Below are positions 41,836 through 48,903 of a DNA stretch of 64,000 nucleotides, piece after piece. The DNA comes from Bacillota bacterium (GTDB taxonomy: Bacteria > Planctomycetota > UBA8108 > UBA1146). The position numbers and the translations under genes were made by a program. The stretch covers positions 10,345-74,344 of the forward strand of contig QNYK01000090.1 in NCBI GenBank assembly GCA_003973385.1, read 5' to 3'. The notes under the pieces are model-generated. The model was not told where the DNA came from and searched no databases. It was given only the letters and a program-made list of their open reading frames with translations. Every line of letters starts with the position of its first letter. Positions within the stretch are counted from its first letter, which is position 1.

Positions 41836-44800
41836 ATGGACGGAAAAACTCCGGTCGCCGAGGCGGGTCACGATGATCTGCAGCAGGCACCTCGCCAGCG
41901 AGCCTTGCACGCGCTCCGCTCCTGGATCCAACTCGGCATCGATCCTGATCCTGGCGAGGAAAAGGGTGCCGCCATCTGCTCATTGGCACTCGTCAGTGGC
42001 GTCAGCGGCGTCGGCAAGACGCACCTCATCGAAGCGGCGCTGGAGGTTCCCCCGGAGGATGTCGGTTCCATCCTCAGTTGTCAGGTCAATTGCCACGAGC
42101 GTCAGGGGATCCCGTTCCTGCCGATCCTTCGACTGGTCAAGGATCTCATCATCGAGCATGGCGAGACGCGCGGCCTGTGGCGCCGATACGCGCATGTGCT
42201 GGTTCGCGTGTTTCCCGAACTCCAGTCGGAAGTGGAGCGAGGCCAGCAGCGTGAGCCCTTGTCGGGCTGGAGTGGACGGATCCAGTTTCATCAGGCGCTG
42301 ACGGGAATCCTCTGGGAACTGGCCCGCGAGCGCACATTGGTGCTGGTTCTCAATGATCTTCACCGCAGTGATCCGGGCACCATCGAGTTCATCGACTACC
42401 TGGCACGGAATTCGGCCCTCTCCATGGAGACGGTCCAGGGTCCGGGGAGCCACGAGTCGAAGGGGGACTCTCGAGACTGGAAACAGATCCGTGCTCGAGA
42501 GGGTCGATCTGGAGAATTTGCCAGTTCCCTAGTCGAGAACCAGGAGGGCAGCGAGCCGCAGCCACCGCAGGCTCGAGGTCGTCTGCTGGTGATCGGAGAT
42601 CACTGCTGCGATGCGCCTCCGGAGGAGCTGGAGGCACTGTCCAGACAGCCGTTTTGCCGAACCGTGCAACTGCCAGCCCTTTCGGTGGAGGAAGTGAGTG
42701 GATTGGTCTGCGAGCAACTCGGCACGGAACCTGATTCCCGACTCGCCGAGATGATGACCGAGGCCTGTGATGGAAACCCACTCCTGGTGCTGGAGATGTG
42801 TCGGTTACTTCAGGAAGGTGGGGTCGCATCTCCGCTCGAGGCGGAGAGTGTCGAGGCATTGCTGGCCAGTTCCAGAGCGGCTGACCTTCCACAGGTCCTC
42901 GTCGGCCGCAGGGTTGCGTCGTTGCCACCGCTCGAGCGTCGAGTACTCGAACACCTGGCGATGTTACGTCGGCCGGTTCAGGCGGCGCAGCTGGTCCGTT
43001 CCTGTCAGGTCTCCGAGGAGCGACTGGCTGTGGCGATGGAGTTGCTGATCGATCGCGGGTTTGTCGATCGCCACCAAGCAAGGGGTGCCATCCGCTACCT
43101 CATCAGCCATGAAATCCACATGCAAGGTATCCGATCCTCGATCCGCCCAGAGGTCGCCAGGAACCTGCAAAAGGAACTGGGTCAGTCCCTGGCCGAGGAT
43201 CCACGTAGCCGGGACCCGGTGCGCGCCTTCGAGGTGCACGAACTCCTCGCTGCAGGAGATGAGCCGACATTGGCGATCCCCTACGGGCTGATTGCGATGA
43301 GGTACTTCGCAGGAGCCTACGCCGAGCCGCTGGCGATTCGCATCGGACGAAGAATGCTCGACTTCATCGGGGCCGAGGGAGACGCAGCAGTGCGTAGTGA
43401 GATTCTCGGTCAACTGGCTCGCCTCGAGGTGGAGACCGGTCAGACAGAATCTGGAAAATTGCACATCAAGATGCTCCTCGAGGATCCGGCAACCGAAGCG
43501 GTCGATCGTGTCGAGGCCCGCATTTTTCTCGGTGAGATCTACCTACTCCTGCAGCAGCCGCTCAAGGGGATCCGAGCGCTGAACAAGGTCAGTTCTGCGG
43601 ATCTTGAGCAGGTCGATCAGTTGATGCCAGTTCGGCTCACTTCACTTCGCGCGCAGCTTCGGCTTCAGCGCCGTGATATCAAGAGGGCGATGAGCCTGTG
43701 CCTGAGGGCGCAAAAGGAACTGGCCGGACTCGAACAGGAAGCCGGAGCTGACCCGTTGTCGAGCCGCATCCTGGAGACGCTTGCAGAGACGCATCTCGCC
43801 CGCGGAGACTCCGCAGCGGCACTCAACAGTTACCAGACACTGCTCGACAGGGTCGAACGGTCACAGGACCCGGTGGCACTGGGATCGGTGCTGCGAACCA
43901 TCGGCAGGGTCTATTACGATCGAGGCAAGCACTTCAGGGCTGCGCGCTACCTGTTCAGGGCGTTGGAGGTTGTTGACAGATCGCAAGATGTGAGGGCTCT
44001 CGCTGCTACCTACGAGCTGCTCGGCAAGGTGTATCGAAATAGTGGCGATTTCTCGAGAAGCCTCGAGCATCTTCGCCGCTGTCTCACGCTTCGCGAGCGG
44101 ATCGGAGACAGCCGTCAGATCTCTCCTACTCTGAACTCCATCGGAAGTTTGCATGCCCACTCCGGCGACTACGGAAGGGCGATCCGGTTCTTCAAACGCA
44201 GCATCTCCAACAGTGAGAAGTATGGAAATACCGAGGGAATCGTCCGCTCGTTCCTGCACCTGGGCTGGGCCTGGTTTGCGCTCGGAGAGAGGAAGCAGGT
44301 CGAGAATCTATCGCGCCAGATCCTGATCTTGACCCAGGAGTTCGATCTGCCAGAGCACCAGGCAGAGGGGCACAGGCTCCAGGGTAATCTGGCACTGTTG
44401 CGGGGGGACTGGAAGTCCGCTGATCGAGAGTTGAAGAAGTCCTTCGATCTCGCCCAGAAGCAGGGGCTGGATCGGGTAGTTGCCGCCAGTTTGTTCGATC
44501 GCGCCCAGCTCAGCACGGAGCGGGAAGCTTTCGAGGAGTCACTGAAGTTCGTCAGCCGCGGACTGCTCACTGCCGAGTCATTGCAGGCGGTCCCTCTGAT
44601 CGTCAGAGGATTGCTGGTCAAGGGCGCCATCAGCCGACAGCGTAATGAAGACGGGCAGAAAAAAGCTCTCGAGTACTACGAGAGAGCTCTCCAGATGATC
44701 AGCGGAGATTCCCTGCTGCCCCTCCAGTGGCAGATCAATTACGCCATCGCCAGGGTCCAGCAAGGGTCCCACGATTTCCAGGGTGCGAGGGTCAACTACG

Positions 44801-46191
44801 ATCGAGCAGCTGCCATCATCGAGAGAATATCAACACGACTGCCAGAAGATATGCGAGTCGTGTACCTGGGTGATCGCAGGCGTAAGAACTTCTTTGCAGA
44901 CCTTCAACGCTTTCGCCGTGAGTCGGATTACCCACCACCGGCCGTGGCCGGACCGGGGCCGTCCACTGTCACCGATGCAGATCCTGAAACAGCATCGCTC
45001 TCAGGTGCCTCTCTGGATCAGGATCGCCTTGCTGCAGTGACCAATGCCATCTCAGAACTCGGGAAGCGAGATGAATTGCGCTCCTTCCTTGAAGGCTTGC
45101 TGGAGCAATGTCGAAAATTGGTCCCCAGTCCCCGCGGTTTCATTGCGGCACGACGGCGGCGGAGGTGGCAGAGCCTCGCGGACATCGACATGGGAATTGC
45201 CGGGGACTGGCTGCCACCATCCCAGGTGCTCGGGGCCCTGGCCCAGGAGTGCATCGAACGATCGATGCCGATGCGAAGTGGGTCGAAGTCCTGGGATGAG
45301 TGGATCTCAACTCATCCGCAGGGTGATTCCGTCAGGGGCAGGAGTCTACTGGCGATCCCGTTCTCGGCCCAGGAAATGCTCTCGGCAGCGCTGGTGCTGG
45401 AACGGCCCACTGCAGGGAACCCGTTCCAGGATCGAGATGTAGCGGAGATCGAGAGATTGCTGTCGCTGGCCCAGGGCCAGCTGGTAGCCCTGTCCAGAAA
45501 CTCGCAGATGCTCGAGTACCAGCAGAGCGAGATCGGGTCGCTGGCTGCGTTTGACGCAGACATCGATCAGTTCCTGTCGCGCCACCACAGAGAAAAGCAG
45601 CCGCTGGGCTTTCTGGAAGTGAGCTTGCCCGGCTTCGATATCTTGCTCAGAGAGCGTGAAGACGAGAACTTTGTGGTCCGGTTACTTCAAATTTTGCAGC
45701 CGATCACGGGTGTCTATCACACCGGTGGCGATCACCTGGTGTGTGTGATGATCGGGCCAGGTGAAGATGATCTTCGCCAGAAGAGTCGTGATCTTCAGCA
45801 TGCTCTTCATGACCTTCGTGAGGAGTTCGGATTACCGGTAGAGGTCCCCGTCAATATATTGCCGCACTGGTACCCTGTCGGCTCTGTCGAGATCACGGAA
45901 CTCACCAGTGGTCGAGTCGATCTCTTTCGTTCCTCCCAGAAGCCCGACCTCGATCAGGAAGTGGCACGATTGACCTCGGGTGAACTGACCCTCAAGGAGG
46001 CGAAGGCAGCACTGGAGCGTCGTTACATCATTGCAGAACTATTCAGAAGCGGTGGAAATATCACCCGAGCTGCAGAGGCTCTGGGGATCCATCGACCTCA
46101 ACTGTCAAACCTTCTCAAACGCCACGAAATCCGCAAGGAAGACTTCGAAGCGGACAGGGATAGATCAGCGAAGGCTCCAGGATCCCCCTGA
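41836..46191 (+). CDS. Giant STAND-type regulator: AAA_16 P-loop NTPase + TPR array + GAF-like + degenerate GGDEF-like + Fis-type HTH
   Basis: Walker A 'GVSGVGKT', Walker B-like 'LVLVLNDLH', and many TPR-like repeats. A GAF-like block reads 'LLAIPFSAQEMLSAALVLERP'. 'GGDHL' stands where GGDEF would sit. The C-terminus is 'GGNITRAAEALGIHRPQLSNLLKRH'. Confidence 0.85.
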   Translation: MDGKTPVAEAGHDDLQQAPRQRALHALRSWIQLGIDPDPGEEKGAAICSLALVSGVSGVGKTHLIEAALEVPPEDVGSILSCQVNCHERQGIPFLPILRLVKDLIIEHGETRGLWRRYAHVLVRVFPELQSEVERGQQREPLSGWSGRIQFHQALTGILWELARERTLVLVLNDLHRSDPGTIEFIDYLARNSALSMETVQGPGSHESKGDSRDWKQIRAREGRSGEFASSLVENQEGSEPQPPQARGRLLVIGDHCCDAPPEELEALSRQPFCRTVQLPALSVEEVSGLVCEQLGTEPDSRLAEMMTEACDGNPLLVLEMCRLLQEGGVASPLEAESVEALLASSRAADLPQVLVGRRVASLPPLERRVLEHLAMLRRPVQAAQLVRSCQVSEERLAVAMELLIDRGFVDRHQARGAIRYLISHEIHMQGIRSSIRPEVARNLQKELGQSLAEDPRSRDPVRAFEVHELLAAGDEPTLAIPYGLIAMRYFAGAYAEPLAIRIGRRMLDFIGAEGDAAVRSEILGQLARLEVETGQTESGKLHIKMLLEDPATEAVDRVEARIFLGEIYLLLQQPLKGIRALNKVSSADLEQVDQLMPVRLTSLRAQLRLQRRDIKRAMSLCLRAQKELAGLEQEAGADPLSSRILETLAETHLARGDSAAALNSYQTLLDRVERSQDPVALGSVLRTIGRVYYDRGKHFRAARYLFRALEVVDRSQDVRALAATYELLGKVYRNSGDFSRSLEHLRRCLTLRERIGDSRQISPTLNSIGSLHAHSGDYGRAIRFFKRSISNSEKYGNTEGIVRSFLHLGWAWFALGERKQVENLSRQILILTQEFDLPEHQAEGHRLQGNLALLRGDWKSADRELKKSFDLAQKQGLDRVVAASLFDRAQLSTEREAFEESLKFVSRGLLTAESLQAVPLIVRGLLVKGAISRQRNEDGQKKALEYYERALQMISGDSLLPLQWQINYAIARVQQGSHDFQGARVNYDRAAAIIERISTRLPEDMRVVYLGDRRRKNFFADLQRFRRESDYPPPAVAGPGPSTVTDADPETASLSGASLDQDRLAAVTNAISELGKRDELRSFLEGLLEQCRKLVPSPRGFIAARRRRRWQSLADIDMGIAGDWLPPSQVLGALAQECIERSMPMRSGSKSWDEWISTHPQGDSVRGRSLLAIPFSAQEMLSAALVLERPTAGNPFQDRDVAEIERLLSLAQGQLVALSRNSQMLEYQQSEIGSLAAFDADIDQFLSRHHREKQPLGFLEVSLPGFDILLREREDENFVVRLLQILQPITGVYHTGGDHLVCVMIGPGEDDLRQKSRDLQHALHDLREEFGLPVEVPVNILPHWYPVGSVEITELTSGRVDLFRSSQKPDLDQEVARLTSGELTLKEAKAALERRYIIAELFRSGGNITRAAEALGIHRPQLSNLLKRHEIRKEDFEADRDRSAKAPGSP

Positions 46192-46251
46192 GCGGCACGA
46201 CGCCGATGTGCCGCATTTCAGATGCGCTGCTTCCTCCGGGTCAATAAGAAG

Positions 46252-46284
46252 GTAGGCCTCGGCGCTGGTAGCGACGAGGCCTAC
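46252..46284 (-). terminator. Hairpin terminator between convergent genes (mainly for the histone-fold gene)
   Basis: GTAGGCCTCG and CGAGGCCTAC form a 10-bp stem, extendable with one mismatch. On the minus strand it is followed by CTTCTTATTGA. It starts 29 nt after the stop at 46313. Confidence 0.55.
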
Positions 46285-46312
46285 GAATCTGACACCATGC
46301 GTGTCTTGTCGA

Positions 46313-46504
46313 CTAGCAGATGAAGTCGTGGGAACGAACGGTCTTGCGTCCATTCTGGCTGGCGCGCTTGGCGGCCTGCTCGATGCACTGGTGCAGGATC
46401 TCGTTGAGTCCGTCGAGGGCATCGCCTCCGACGTTCACATCGTGCTGCTTGAGCGCTGCCTTTGCCTTGCTCCCGACGAGCAGCATCTCGCGTTGATTGG
46501 ACAT
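46313..46504 (-). CDS. Bacterial histone-fold protein (singlet, alpha3-truncated; HBb/Bd0055-like)
   Basis: 63 aa. The layout helix-loop-long helix-loop aligns with archaeal HMfB, including 'QNGRKTVRSHD' against 'HAGRKTIKAEDI'. GC3 by hand count is about 81%. It has its own RBS-like AAAGGGGA and its own terminator. Confidence 0.8.
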   Translation of the reverse strand: MSNQREMLLVGSKAKAALKQHDVNVGGDALDGLNEILHQCIEQAAKRASQNGRKTVRSHDFIC

Positions 46505-46829
46505 GAAATCCCCTTTCTGACCTCGATACGATCCTTGCCAGGATCGCCTTCCGAGGGTTTTCTGATCGTTGCAACTACAATGCTGGCTTCCTGGATTCCC
46601 GCATTATCCAGCCAGCGCCCTGAATCTGGTCCCCTCGGCATGAAGCCCGCCACGGTGCAGGCAAGGGGCTCAAATGTCACTGCCCGGAGGATAGCCACCT
46701 TCGGACCCGATGGGGAAGCAGTAAATTCCCTAGCGAGTCCCGAATTCTACGGGTATCCGGCCTTTCCGGCCCATCTCGATCGTCACGAGATTTGCCTCCC
46801 GGTCGAGCCATCGAGCGGTGCATTGAAAT

Positions 46830-46856
46830 GTAAGTATCTTGATATTCGATACTTAC
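46830..46856 (-). terminator. AT-rich perfect hairpin immediately after the FadN-like stop (weak terminator or operator)
   Basis: GTAAGTATC-TTGATATTC-GATACTTAC, followed on the minus strand by ATTTCAATG. The stem is only 9 bp and GC-poor. Confidence 0.35.
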
Positions 46857-46857
46857 A

Positions 46858-48903
46858 CTAGGCGTGAACGAATCTGGCGGGGGTTCTCGGGCCATTTTCG
46901 AGAAAGTTGGTGACTCCGATACGCATATCCTGAGTTCCGCAGACTTCGCCAAAATATCGTGCTTCCAGAGCGATCCCTTCAGTCAGCGGCAGCCGACAAC
47001 CCTCGACGATCGCCTTCTGCAGGATCTCATCGACGCTCCTGCTCAGGTGCCCGAGGTCGACTTCAGGCAACGAGTCGGGGGTTTCGATCGGTCCCATTGG
47101 AATCATCGGGAGTGGCTCGTCGCCCGACAGATAGGCCCCTATCAGTTCGACCGCACGGGCGCGGAGGTCTCGAGGGTCTCCAGCCACCTCCTCGACGATC
47201 AGCCCGATGGCCAGCGCCTCGGAGGAAGAGACGGGGCGCCCGGTTCGCATCAATTCGGCAGCCTTCTCGACGCCGACCCAGCGAGGTAGCCGCTGGGTAC
47301 CACCGGCTCCGGGGATGATTCCGAGATTGACCTCCGGTTGACCGACGAGCACACGCTGGCCTGCGCGTGCTATTCGTGCGTTACAGGCCATGGCGATCTC
47401 GTTGCCACCACCCAATGCCAGTCCATTGAGGGCGCAGACCACTGGTTTTGTGCAGTCCTCGATGGCCTGGATCGACTTCTGTGACCCGCGAGAGGTCTCT
47501 TCACCCATGGCGATCGAATCGATGCTGGCGAGGAAGGGAACATCAGCCCCGGAGACAAACGCCTTGATTCCGAAACCGGAGAGTACAACGCCTACGATGC
47601 TGCTGTCTGATTCGATGTCGAGGAAGTGGCGCTCGATCTGGTCGAAGGCGACGTTGTTGAAGGCGTTGAGTTGTTTTGGACGCCGAATCGTGACGTGTGC
47701 GATGGCCTCCTTGTCTTGTCGGAGGACCAGTGCGATGTCGAAGGGTGCTCCCTCCTGTGCCTGATCTGTGATGCACTGCGGAACCGGGAAGCCGGAGTGA
47801 CTCTCGGAATACTTCTCCACCAGGTGGAGCGCATTGTCGACGCCGATCGAGTTCATCAGGCGAAAAGGAGCCTTCACATCGAGCGCGGTCTCCACTGCCA
47901 TATCCATGTCGTCGATGCTGGAGATGCCGCTGTCGACGATCTCGCCCACGATGCCAAAGAACGCTCCGAGCAAGGAATCCCGAACCTGCGAATAGGTGTC
48001 ATCGGCAACGTCGATCGACTCCCCTCTGGCGGGGACCTCCCAGGAACTCTCGTCAGCAACTGCTCTCCGGAGAATTTCCGGTGTGCGGTACCAGCCGTTG
48101 ATCTTCTCGTTGTAGTTGTCGAGACCGACTGCGGTGATCGGGTTGCCTCCTGTGAGATTCATGGCAGTGAAGGGGCCGACCGTGTATCCGAGCACATCAC
48201 AGGCGACGTGGTCCACTTCCTTGCAGCTGGCGATCCCCTCTTCCACCATCAACGCAGAGGCGAGAAACATACCCTCGAAGACGGGATCGAGCGCGTACCC
48301 ATAGCGACTCTTGACCTGAATCGGCACCTTTCCGATCGCCTCGTAGAATCCCATCATGTCGGAAACCAGGCCCTTGGAGGTATTCGCACCGGGAACGATC
48401 TCCACTATCGGGTTGCGTTCCGCAGGGAAGAAATAGTGGACCACCATCGTTCGAGCCGGATCAGAAACTCCTTCGAAGATGACATCTGGCTCCAGATGAG
48501 ATGAGTTGGAGCAGAGTACCGCATCCGCTGCCACCAGGTCTGCCACCTGGGTGAAGATGCGGCGCTTCAGGTCCTTGTCCTCGGTGGCAGCTTCGACGAC
48601 AAGATCACATCCCTTGAGCTGGTCGTAGTTGCTGGTGAACAGGACATTTTCTTTCATCGCCTGCCCCAGTTCGGCTCGAAAGGCTCTCGTCTCGATGCCC
48701 TTATCAATCTTACGATCGAGTTTCTTCTTCCCCTGCGCCAGAGCCTCTTCGCTGATGTCCACGACCACGATGGAGGTTCCCATCGGAGTGAACACCTTGG
48801 AGAAGTGAAGAGCGATGTCGGGCCCGATCTGGCCCGAGCCGATGACTCCGATGCGTGTGACAGGACGACCCAGGATGTGGATATTCGGCGTTTCAGAACT
48901 CAT
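46858..48903 (-). CDS. 3-hydroxyacyl-CoA dehydrogenase / enoyl-CoA hydratase fusion (FadN-like order: dehydrogenase first)
   Basis: NAD-binding 'IGVIGSGQIGPDIA' at the N-terminus and a crotonase fold 'ALNGLALGGGNEIAMAC...GQPEVNLGIIPGAGGTQRL' at the C-terminus. Confidence 0.9.
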   Translation of the reverse strand: MSSETPNIHILGRPVTRIGVIGSGQIGPDIALHFSKVFTPMGTSIVVVDISEEALAQGKKKLDRKIDKGIETRAFRAELGQAMKENVLFTSNYDQLKGCDLVVEAATEDKDLKRRIFTQVADLVAADAVLCSNSSHLEPDVIFEGVSDPARTMVVHYFFPAERNPIVEIVPGANTSKGLVSDMMGFYEAIGKVPIQVKSRYGYALDPVFEGMFLASALMVEEGIASCKEVDHVACDVLGYTVGPFTAMNLTGGNPITAVGLDNYNEKINGWYRTPEILRRAVADESSWEVPARGESIDVADDTYSQVRDSLLGAFFGIVGEIVDSGISSIDDMDMAVETALDVKAPFRLMNSIGVDNALHLVEKYSESHSGFPVPQCITDQAQEGAPFDIALVLRQDKEAIAHVTIRRPKQLNAFNNVAFDQIERHFLDIESDSSIVGVVLSGFGIKAFVSGADVPFLASIDSIAMGEETSRGSQKSIQAIEDCTKPVVCALNGLALGGGNEIAMACNARIARAGQRVLVGQPEVNLGIIPGAGGTQRLPRWVGVEKAAELMRTGRPVSSSEALAIGLIVEEVAGDPRDLRARAVELIGAYLSGDEPLPMIPMGPIETPDSLPEVDLGHLSRSVDEILQKAIVEGCRLPLTEGIALEARYFGEVCGTQDMRIGVTNFLENGPRTPARFVHA

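What the first reader, a model, noticed from the sequence alone, without database searches (positions are those of the whole stretch)
46313..46504. Stand-alone 63-aa bacterial histone-fold gene
The translation MSNQREMLLVGSKAKAALKQHDVNVGGDALDGLNEILHQCIEQAAKRASQNGRKTVRSHDFIC has a histone-fold layout. It reads as a short helix (VGSKAKAALKQH), loop L1 (DVNVGG), a long central helix (DALDGLNEILHQCIEQAAKRASQ) and loop L2. L2 carries the conserved G-R-K-T-(V/I)-x-x-x-D signature; compare archaeal HMfB ...KLARHAGRKTIKAEDIELA. Helix alpha3 is cut to about 4 residues, which as I recall is the hallmark of the bacterial singlet histones described for Bdellovibrio Bd0055/HBb and Leptospira. The gene is monocistronic, has its own hairpin terminator (46252..46284), a roughly 350-bp upstream region and very high GC3, which fits a real, well-expressed gene. 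ORFs this small are often missed by annotation. A histone-type nucleoid protein in a PVC-like genome would be largely uncharacterised.
Basis: partly seen in the sequence, partly recalled or inferred. Interest (0 to 1): 0.75.

Follow-up and report, generated by a model that had tools for sequence, protein, structure and literature searches.

The report
Planctomycete histone gene with structured leader
The 63-codon ORF is a real, strongly conserved gene for a bacterial histone of the short "alpha3-truncated" type, a family already described in Planctomycetota, so it is a sound but ordinary find; the only new item is a conserved folded RNA element in front of the gene.

Summary
The ORF at 46313..46504 (-) exists as described and is a genuine gene. 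dN/dS is 0.03-0.14 against 12 relatives. A Shine-Dalgarno sequence, a terminator hairpin and the gene order are conserved. The AlphaFold2 model (pLDDT 91) is a histone fold with a 3-residue alpha3 and superposes on solved bacterial histones: HLp of Leptospira perolatii (TM 0.86/0.94, 47% identity) and HBb/Bd0055 (TM 0.87, 30%). By sequence it is closest to HLp (E 1.5e-10). It carries the residues that define face-to-face (FtF) tetrameric histones (R47, N51, R53, T55, D60, K15), so it is FtF-type rather than HBb "bacterial dimer" type. Tetramer formation could not be tested. Pfam misses it (E 0.11). The family is large (relatives in at least 555 species genomes) and has been reported in Planctomycetota since 2023-2025. 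Gene callers already find it, so it is a new member of a known kind. One thing is new. The 353-nt upstream gap holds a ~125-nt element of two hairpin domains with a possible kissing loop. Covariation supports it, Rfam has no match, and it occurs only upstream of this histone gene in one marine planctomycete clade.

The parts
46313..46504 (-). Coding sequence of a 63-aa alpha3-truncated (FtF-type) bacterial histone. Predicted layout: alpha1 11-19, L1 20-28, alpha2 29-50, L2 51-57 (G52-R53-K54-T55), alpha3 58-60.
   Evidence: ORF and translation. dN/dS 0.03-0.14. PDB phmmer: HLp 9qt0 E 1.5e-10, HBb 8cmp E 1.9e-4. With the family profile: 6.6e-16 and 5.7e-10. AF2 pLDDT 91. Foldseek: HLp TM 0.86/0.94, rmsd 0.8.
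46509..46517 (-). Shine-Dalgarno region (AAAGGGGA), 5-6 nt upstream of the ATG.
   Evidence: CAGAAAGGGGA / CAGGAAAGGAA is conserved immediately upstream of the ATG in all syntenic relatives.
46241..46284 (-). Intrinsic-terminator-like hairpin (46252..46284) plus a U-rich tail, 29 nt after the stop codon and between convergent genes.
   Evidence: Fold at -34.6 kcal/mol, z -4.3. An equivalent hairpin is present in all 11 relatives, with a U-tract in the closer ones, and the stem sequences differ.
46576..46702 (-). Conserved structured RNA element in the upstream region or 5' leader. It starts with the invariant GGCUAUCCU. Helix P1 encloses hairpin P2 (46645..46662, loop aCCGUg), with the invariant CAUGCC in an internal loop. 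A two-tier hairpin P3/P4 follows (46582..46616, loop uGCGGg). The two loops may pair (CCGY with RCGG).
   Evidence: Alignments A2-A6. Covariation counts: 87.5% paired vs at most 46% when slid, 15 pairs with changes on both sides vs at most 6, and 0 of 500 shuffles reach it. Covariance-model hits occur only upstream of the histone gene. No Rfam family. Not coding.
46521..46556 (-). Hairpin at the 3' end of the leader (CCUCG...CGAGG with an inner stem), just upstream of the Shine-Dalgarno sequence.
   Evidence: RNAalifold and block folds. Helices 6/7 are 80-88% paired, and 3 pairs change on both sides. The single-sequence fold reproduces it.
46827..46859 (-). AT-rich hairpin (GUGUAAGUAUC...GAUACUUACAU) overlapping the stop codon of the upstream FadB-like gene. 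It probably marks the 3' end of that gene, so the histone would have its own promoter downstream of it.
   Evidence: -13.5 kcal/mol, z -4.2. The GTAAG/CTTAC ends are conserved and the interior changes while keeping the pairing in relatives.

Best explanation
[quoted passage not shown] Two chains should form the antiparallel histone-fold 'handshake' dimer. Two dimers probably associate through the end of alpha2, loop L2 and the short alpha3 (R47, N51, R53, F61) into a closed tetramer. DNA would be bound without sequence specificity by the alpha1 lysines (K13, K15, K19), the S12-K13 helix end and the L1/L2 bridge (G27; K54-T55), with L2 held by the R53-D60 clamp. About 60 bp would wrap around each tetramer, compacting the chromosome as an abundant nucleoid-associated protein. 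The gene looks like its own transcription unit, with a hairpin after the upstream gene and its own terminator. It is preceded by a clade-specific structured RNA element that most likely sits in a long 5' leader and sets how much histone is made. Shown here: the gene is real and under purifying selection; it has the histone fold; it is nearest to HLp; the interface and DNA-contact residues are conserved; the RNA structure is conserved and exclusively linked to this gene. Inferred only: dimer and tetramer state, DNA wrapping, abundance, transcript boundaries, and any regulatory role of the leader.
For: Sequence: HLp E 1.5e-10 over the full length; HBb E 2e-4; HmvA, HTkC and Asgard/archaeal histones weaker. 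With the family profile: HLp 6.6e-16, HBb 5.7e-10, HTkC 3.9e-8. NCBIfam archaea_histone E 2.2e-5. Structure: pLDDT 91, helices 11-19, 29-50 and 58-60. The nine best PDB fold matches are all HLp, HBb or HTkC (TM 0.79-0.87, rmsd 0.8-1.1), followed by archaeal, eukaryotic and NF-Y histone folds. FtF signature: profile positions R48, N52, R54, T56, D61 and K16 (PMC11390915), which are HLp R49, N53, R55 (PMC12701072), correspond with identical spacing to query R47, N51, R53, T55, D60 and K15. R47, N51, R53 and T55 are invariant and K15 and D60 at least 90% conserved in 45 homologs. HBb has S and D at the R and N positions. The HLp DNA-contact residues S14, K15, K17, K21 and G29 map to query S12, K13, K15, K19 and G27. 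Selection: dN/dS 0.03-0.14; the histone is better conserved (90%) than its neighbours (80% and 73%) in the same relatives. Transcription unit. Leader.
Against: The C-terminus runs two residues (I62-C63) past the position where HLp ends, and in FtF structures the chain end takes part in the dimer-dimer contact. Two of six HLp interface residues differ (S52 to Q50, T61 to H59). The family keeps K54 (RKT), which is typical of nucleosomal and 'bacterial dimer' histones and is not strongly conserved in the FtF profile. Net charge is low (9 K/R vs 7 D/E, pI 8.8), although by my count from the chain sequence HLp has a similar balance. There are no expression data and no transcription start. The single-sequence fold of the whole leader is no more stable than shuffles (z -0.3), so the RNA element rests on covariation within one clade of related sequences. 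Pfam and NCBIfam curated cut-offs are not reached.
Confidence: 0.8

Rival explanations
1. It is a histone, but it works like HBb (Bd0055): a strict dimer that bends DNA locally in the manner of HU/IHF, and does not form a DNA-wrapping tetramer.
For: The monomer fold matches HBb as well as it matches HLp (TM 0.87 vs 0.86). The RKT motif and the three alpha1 lysines are features listed for 'bacterial dimer' histones, which also occur in Planctomycetota (PMC11390915). The C-terminus extends past D60 by three residues, as in HBb, whereas HLp ends one residue after its Asp. The tetramer was not tested.
Against: Bacterial dimers are described as lacking R48 and N52. The query family has both invariant. 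Sequence similarity to HLp is much higher (47% vs 30% identity; 61 vs 42 bits with the family profile).
Confidence: 0.17
2. It has a histone fold but is not a general chromosome-packaging protein. It would be a low-abundance, locus-specific or condition-specific factor, possibly tied to the conserved neighbouring 1451-aa AAA_16-TPR-HTH_8 regulator.
For: Convergent synteny with the large regulator is kept down to 37-42% identity of that regulator (L034, L039, L045). Schwab et al. caution that not all prokaryotic histone-fold proteins are global organisers. There are no expression data here.
Against: All DNA-contact and clamp residues of characterised histones are retained and invariant. The same protein family occurs in many phyla without these neighbours. 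Its codon usage is biased (GC3 0.81). The characterised relatives in Leptospira and Bdellovibrio are among the most abundant proteins (PMC10627809, PMC11390915). The synteny may simply be inherited within one clade.
Confidence: 0.03
3. About the upstream element only: the conserved blocks are DNA-level signals (promoter, operator) rather than a folded RNA, or the RNA is an independent small RNA rather than a leader of the histone mRNA.
For: GGCTATCCT contains a TATCCT that could serve as a -10-like hexamer. No transcription start is known. The invariant blocks GGCUAUCCU and CAUGCC are unpaired in the model. The sequences come from a single clade, so relatedness inflates the shuffle statistics (see the caveats).
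Against: Stems change on both sides while pairing is kept: 15 of 27 pairs, 43 cells, vs at most 6 pairs when partners are slid by 1-3 columns. DNA-binding sites conserve sequence rather than pairing. The element keeps a fixed position and orientation relative to the histone ATG in every locus and never occurs without the gene.
Confidence: 0.25
4. The ORF is a chance open frame or a shadow of the 186-aa plus-strand ORF at 46301..46861.
For: It is short, the DNA is GC-rich, and several overlapping ORFs are listed mechanically.
Against: dN/dS is 0.03-0.14 in this frame. There are hundreds of homologs. The fold is confident and matches crystal structures. The Shine-Dalgarno sequence and terminator are conserved.
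Confidence: 0.005

Closest known systems
HLp, face-to-face (FtF) alpha3 histone of Leptospira perolatii (PDB 9QT0/9QT1/9QT2; PMC12701072)
   Same: The length is similar (63 aa; the 9QT0 chain is 65 aa). It is 47% identical, E 1.5e-10. The fold is the same, with the short alpha2 and 3-residue alpha3 (rmsd 0.8-0.9 A). The tetramer-interface residues R, N, R and F are kept, as are the RD clamp, the S-K helix end and the alpha1 lysines.
   Different: L2 reads RKT rather than RTT. The C-terminus is two residues longer and ends in Cys. Q50 and H59 replace S52 and T61 of the interface. The N-terminal tail is very short and uncharged. The genomic context differs: FadB-like and AAA_16-TPR-HTH_8 genes here, SMC, MAP and DUF350 in Leptospira. 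A structured upstream RNA element is present here. Oligomeric state and DNA wrapping are not tested.
HBb / Bd0055, 'bacterial dimer' alpha3 histone of Bdellovibrio bacteriovorus (PDB 8CMP, 8FVX, 9EZZ; PMC11317129, PMC10627809)
   Same: It is a singlet alpha3-truncated histone with an RKTV motif, an S-K motif and lysines on alpha1. The monomer superposes at TM 0.87.
   Different: Identity is only 30%, E 2e-4. HBb has S and D where the query family has the invariant R47 and N51. Those are the residues whose absence defines the dimer group.
HTkC, archaeal FtF histone of Thermococcus kodakarensis (PDB 9F2C; PMC11390915)
   Same: Same alpha3 fold (TM 0.81, 32% identity). It shares the R of the tetramer interface and the GRKT motif.
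   Different: It is archaeal and more distant (E 0.013 alone, 3.9e-8 with the profile). It has E at the N51 position.
Archaeal nucleosomal histones (HMfB/HTkA type; Pfam CBFD_NFYB_HMF)
   Same: Histone fold, RKTxxxxD motif and RD clamp.
   Different: Those have a full-length alpha3 (about 10 residues) and a longer alpha2, and they form four-helix-bundle tetramers and hypernucleosomes. The query scores below the Pfam and NCBIfam cut-offs, and the fold matches are weaker (TM about 0.6).
DUF1931 pseudodimeric histone-fold proteins (Aquifex AQ328, Thermus; Pfam PF09123)
   Same: NCBI applies this name to relatives of the query and to the HLp entry.
   Different: Those proteins have two fused folds and lack the DNA-binding residues. 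The query is a singlet that has them. Only 3 of 45 family members touch PF09123, at E of 0.19 or worse. The label is a misnomer for this family.

Membership tests
Histone fold (structural superfamily) | Helix-loop-long helix-loop-helix fold that superposes on solved histones | tested here: met
   AF2 pLDDT 91. Foldseek top 50 are all histone-fold chains, the best being HLp, HBb and HTkC at TM 0.79-0.87 and rmsd 0.8-1.1.
Histone fold (structural superfamily) | Antiparallel handshake dimer | not testable with these tools
Some HLp dimer-core positions are kept (L18, L33, L37, F61) and others are replaced (A14, C40, A45).
alpha3-truncated histones (Schwab et al. 2024) | alpha3 of only 3-4 residues | tested here: met
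   The helix spans 58-60 in the model, and the chain ends 3 residues after D60.
alpha3-truncated histones (Schwab et al. 2024) | alpha2 shorter than in nucleosomal histones | tested here: met
   alpha2 spans 29-50, or 22 residues. It aligns without gaps to HLp, while alignments to HmvA and HBb need insertions. The length of nucleosomal alpha2 used for comparison comes from the literature and was not measured here.
alpha3-truncated histones (Schwab et al. 2024) | RxTxxxxD motif with an R-D clamp structuring L2 | tested here: met
   R53, T55 and D60 have the right spacing. R53 and T55 are invariant and D60 is at least 90% conserved.
Face-to-face (FtF) histones | Conserved dimer-dimer residues R48 and N52 of the FtF profile (HLp R49, N53, with R55) | tested here: met
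   Query R47, N51 and R53 align to HLp R49, N53 and R55 (numbering). They are invariant in 45 homologs.
Face-to-face (FtF) histones | Conserved alpha1 lysine (profile K16) | tested here: met
   K15 is at least 90% conserved. K13 is invariant and K19 is at least 90% conserved.
Face-to-face (FtF) histones | Forms a closed, torus-like homotetramer (the feature by which the group is defined) | not testable with these tools
   No multimer prediction is available. The C-terminus is two residues longer than in HLp, which could affect the interface.
Face-to-face (FtF) histones | No strongly conserved K/R at profile position 55 (RxT rather than RKT); a tendency of the profile, not a strict criterion | tested here: not met
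   K54 is invariant in this subfamily, while HLp has T. This marks it as an RKT-bearing sub-variant.
'Bacterial dimer' histones (HBb type) | Lack of the R48/N52 dimer-dimer residues | tested here: not met
   Both residues are present and invariant. HBb has S and D there.
'Bacterial dimer' histones (HBb type) | Sequence clustering with HBb (the group was defined by sequence clustering) | tested here: inconclusive
   Identity is 30% with E 2e-4 to HBb, against 47% with E 1.5e-10 to HLp. No CLANS-type clustering was run.
Pfam CBFD_NFYB_HMF (PF00808) | Score at or above the gathering threshold (21.4 bits) | tested here: not met
   13.2 bits, E 0.11. 25 of 45 relatives hit weakly, with a best E of 0.017.
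NCBIfam archaea_histone (NF043032) | Score at or above the curated cut-off (50 bits) | tested here: not met
   24.8 bits, E 2.2e-5. This is significant but below the cut-off.
DUF1931 pseudodimeric histones (PF09123) | Two fused histone folds and loss of the DNA-binding residues | tested here: not met
   The query has a single fold of 63 aa and retains the DNA-binding residues. PF09123 is hit by 3 of 45 members at E of 0.19 or worse.
Nucleoid-associated protein (functional class) | Non-specific DNA binding, high abundance and nucleoid localisation | not testable with these tools
   The only indirect hints are GC3 of 0.81 and conservation higher than the neighbouring genes.
Any Rfam family (for the upstream RNA element) | Covariance-model match | tested here: not met
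   Nothing relevant at E up to 1 in 45800..47200, and nothing at gathering score in the whole window.

The most novel reading that the evidence does not exclude
The ~125-nt element of two hairpin domains with a possible kissing loop (46576..46702) is a previously undescribed cis-regulatory RNA that sets histone dosage. It could do so by binding the histone itself (autoregulation) or by sensing a metabolite or physical signal. In this reading the protein is an RKT-bearing FtF tetramer that serves as the main chromatin protein of an abundant marine planctomycete lineage. This would be the first known post-transcriptional control element for a bacterial histone.
Probability: 0.2. Interest if true: 0.6.

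Novelty: new member of a known kind. Interest (0 to 1): 0.33.

Why it matters
Bacterial histones were recognised only recently. [quoted passage not shown] The Leptospira interrogans homolog has also been shown to be abundant and essential.

This gene adds a well-supported planctomycete member. It combines the FtF tetramer residues with the RKT DNA-binding motif of nucleosomal and dimer histones, which makes it a useful test case for which features decide bending versus wrapping.

Practically, the subfamily is invisible to Pfam, and sources name its members 'hypothetical', 'DUF1931' or 'histone H3/H4'. A dedicated profile would fix the annotation in hundreds of genomes.

The conserved structured RNA upstream is, as far as I could find, undescribed. 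It points to regulated histone dosage in bacteria, a question not yet addressed for any bacterial histone.

Tried and rejected
- **Pfam as arbiter.** The query and all 45 relatives are below threshold, so Pfam cannot decide. PDB sequence search and fold search were used instead.
- **Published classification.** A search of the supplements of Schwab et al. for this subfamily's motifs found nothing.
- **Rfam.** No family matched the upstream element or anything else in the window. There are no tRNAs.
- **Metagenome pattern scan.** The first pattern was rejected on syntax. It became useful only after filtering with tblastn and the covariance model.
- **Leader as small protein.** I tested the idea that leader conservation reflects the overlapping 87-aa ORF at 46435..46698. 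It is rejected: the start codon is not conserved, relatives have stops and frameshifts, and there is no 3-base periodicity (53/52/53 variable columns).
- **Sigma-70-type promoter.** The scan found none upstream of the gene on the minus strand. The transcription start remains unknown.
- **HU/IHF or a second histone in the window.** tblastn found none, but 64 kb says little about the genome.
- **SD sequestering.** I considered by eye that the pyrimidine blocks GGCUAUCCUC and CUUCCCC might sequester the Shine-Dalgarno sequence. I saw no covariation, so this stays speculation.
- **Element beyond the close clade.** It was not detected in the more distant syntenic relatives L021, L023, L034, L039 and L045, nor in any other phylum.

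Full report
**1. Observation**

The minus-strand ORF at 46313..46504 exists and translates to the 63 residues quoted.
- It begins at the most upstream in-frame start.
- AAAGGGGA lies 5-6 nt before the ATG and is conserved in relatives.
- The claimed hairpin at 46252..46284 is present. The 83-nt 3' region folds at -34.6 kcal/mol, z -4.3.
- All 11 relatives examined have a hairpin at the same place. A U-tract follows in the closer ones, and the stem sequences differ between relatives. That is the behaviour of a functional intrinsic terminator.
- The upstream gap is 353 nt.
- GC3 is 0.81 against 0.63-0.71 for eight neighbouring genes. For 64 codons this is only a modest excess.

**2. The gene is real**

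- Against 12 relatives with 74-90% protein identity, synonymous sites are heavily diverged (dS 0.4 to over 2) while dN stays at 0.03-0.20. This gives dN/dS of 0.03-0.14.
- The exact protein is called on at least 22 public contigs, and the index lists it in 81 blocks of the collection.
- 318 homologs were found by word search.
- At least 555 species-representative genomes encode a relative.
- 1,237 clusters at 50% identity match the family profile, 168 of them at E up to 1e-10.

**3. What it is**

*Profile libraries are weak.*
- Pfam CBFD_NFYB_HMF scores E 0.11, below its threshold.
- NCBIfam archaea_histone scores E 2.2e-5, below its cut-off.
- None of 45 relatives reaches the Pfam threshold. 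The families that most members hit weakly are histone-fold ones (CBFD_NFYB_HMF, CENP-T_C, CENP-X), and a few members also hit CENP-S, Bromo_TP and DUF1931. Scattered hits to unrelated families also occur.

*Solved structures decide the matter.*
- phmmer hits HLp of Leptospira perolatii (9QT0) at E 1.5e-10 over the full length.
- It hits HBb/Bd0055 (8CMP, 8FVX) at about 2e-4, HmvA at 3e-3 and HTkC at 0.013.
- With the family profile these become 6.6e-16 (HLp), 5.7e-10 (HBb) and 3.9e-8 (HTkC).

*The structure agrees.*
- An AlphaFold2 model from 45 homologs has pLDDT 91, with helices 11-19, 29-50 and 58-60.
- Foldseek puts HLp first (TM 0.86/0.94, rmsd 0.8 A, 47% identity), then HBb (TM 0.87, 30%), then HTkC (TM 0.81).
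- Archaeal, eukaryotic and NF-Y histone folds follow.

The protein is therefore an alpha3-truncated histone in the sense of Schwab et al. 2024 (PMC11390915).

**4. Which subfamily**

Schwab et al. define FtF histones by a torus tetramer. They list the most conserved profile positions as R48, N52, R54, T56 and D61, with K16 on alpha1. 'Bacterial dimers' such as HBb lack R48 and N52. In HLp the same residues are R49, N53 and R55 and make the dimer-dimer hydrogen-bond network.
- The alignment maps these to query R47, N51, R53, T55, D60 and K15, with identical spacing.
- R47, N51, G52, R53, K54 and T55 are invariant in 45 homologs.
- HBb has S and D at the R and N positions.
- The HLp DNA-contact residues S14, K15, K17, K21 and G29 correspond to query S12, K13, K15, K19 and G27.

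The protein is therefore FtF-type by sequence. It differs from HLp in four ways:
- K54 gives RKT rather than RTT.
- The C-terminus is two residues longer (…D-F-I-C).
- Q50 and H59 replace two interface residues.
- There is almost no N-terminal tail.

Tetramer formation, the defining feature, could not be tested.

**5. Context**

- The upstream gene on the same strand is a FadB-like 3-hydroxyacyl-CoA dehydrogenase/enoyl-CoA hydratase (46858..48903).
- The downstream, convergent gene is a 1451-aa AAA_16-TPR-HTH_8 protein (41836..46191).
- This order is kept throughout a clade of uncultured Planctomycetota MAGs, several of them from ocean samples. In that clade FadB falls from 80% to 59% identity and the regulator from 73% to 37%.
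- It is absent from the loci of other phyla that carry the histone: Bdellovibrionota, Acidobacteriota, Krumholzibacteriota, Elusimicrobiota, Myxococcota and others.
- I read the synteny as inherited and not as evidence of a functional link.
- A conserved AT-rich hairpin overlaps the FadB stop codon (46827..46859; -13.5 kcal/mol, z -4.2). Together with the terminator downstream, this fits a separate transcription unit, but that is inferred.
- The window holds no HU/IHF, no second histone, no tRNA and no Rfam family.

**6.

The gap before the histone gene keeps its length in most of the close relatives (about 352-357 nt where measured) and contains invariant blocks.

*Structure.* Consensus folding and manual inspection give a core at 46576..46702:
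- It starts with the invariant GGCUAUCCU.
- Helix P1 encloses hairpin P2 (loop aCCGYg), with the invariant CAUGCC in an internal loop.
- A two-tier hairpin P3/P4 follows (loop uRCGGr).
- A further hairpin lies at 46521..46556, next to the Shine-Dalgarno sequence.

*Covariation on 16 distinct sequences.* Five of these (L019, L097, L150, L181, L182) were not used to build the model.
- 87.5% of cells pair, against 36-46% when partners are slid.
- 15 of 27 pairs show changes on both sides, against at most 6 when slid.
- No shuffle of 500 reaches the observed values.
- The alignment was fitted to the model and the sequences are related, so these figures are generous. The slid controls and the MAFFT-based counts agree, however.

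*Possible kissing loop.* The two loops are complementary (CCGY with RCGG). The variable pair is C-G in 7 sequences, U-G in 5 and U-A in 4, and never a mismatch. This is consistent with a kissing loop but is weak evidence, because three of the four pairs never vary.

*Distribution.*
- A covariance model finds the element once per locus, always upstream of the histone gene, in the close clade only.
- A metagenome motif scan gave 120 stretches. The 13 with strong model hits (79-120 bits) are exactly the 13 that carry the histone gene downstream.

*Controls.* Rfam has no match. The overlapping 87-aa ORF is not conserved.

I interpret the element as a structured 5' leader that controls histone expression. 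The transcription start, the mechanism and any ligand are unknown.

**7. Comparison with the literature**

- Hocher et al. 2023 reported singlet histones in 1.86% of bacterial genomes and noted their persistence in Planctomycetota (PMC10627809).
- Schwab et al. 2024 list Planctomycetota among the main bacterial phyla for both FtF and bacterial-dimer histones.
- The HLp study of 2025 showed tetramers wrapping about 60 bp and repeats that distribution.
- I found no experimental work on a planctomycete histone in the held library.

**8. Verdict**

- It is a new member of a known kind and of modest interest in itself.
- The structured upstream RNA is the one item that appears to be undescribed, and it deserves a follow-up.

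Noticed in passing
window 46576..46702 (-), with 46521..46556 (-): A conserved RNA element of two hairpin domains with a possible kissing loop lies in the 353-nt gap upstream of the histone gene. Covariation supports it, Rfam has no match, and it is found only upstream of this gene in one marine planctomycete clade.
   Followed up: yes
window 46827..46859 (-): An AT-rich hairpin overlaps the stop codon of the FadB-like gene. Its GTAAG/CTTAC ends are conserved and its interior changes while keeping the pairing across relatives. It is probably the 3' end or a stability element of that gene.
   Followed up: partly
not in window; proteins P0121-P0127, P0129 and others: Many of the best matches to the family profile are 114-134-aa tandem doublets of this alpha3 histone. 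Both halves keep the R-x3-N-G-R-K/S-T motif, unlike the DUF1931 pseudodimers, which lack the DNA-binding residues. I did not check whether this doublet class has been described.
   Followed up: partly
not in window; protein P0174 (650 aa): A long protein carries a C-terminal copy of this histone fold (residues 589-648) after a roughly 590-residue N-terminal region of unknown nature.
   Followed up: no
window 41836..46191 (+) and loci L009-L023, L034, L039, L045: A 1451-aa AAA_16-TPR(MalT-like)-HTH_8 protein lies convergent to the histone gene. The arrangement is kept even where the regulator is only 37-42% identical. It may be plain inherited synteny or a functional link.
   Followed up: partly
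family-wide: This histone subfamily is invisible to Pfam at curated thresholds. Public sources name its members inconsistently: hypothetical protein, DUF1931 domain-containing protein, or histone H3/H4.
   Followed up: yes
window 46313..46504 (-), residues C40 and C63: The protein ends in a cysteine that is conserved in the closest clade (…DF[ITVN]C). This copy also has a second cysteine at position 40, where most relatives have Y, W or A. Whether disulfides or metal binding affect the dimer-dimer contact is unknown.
   Followed up: no
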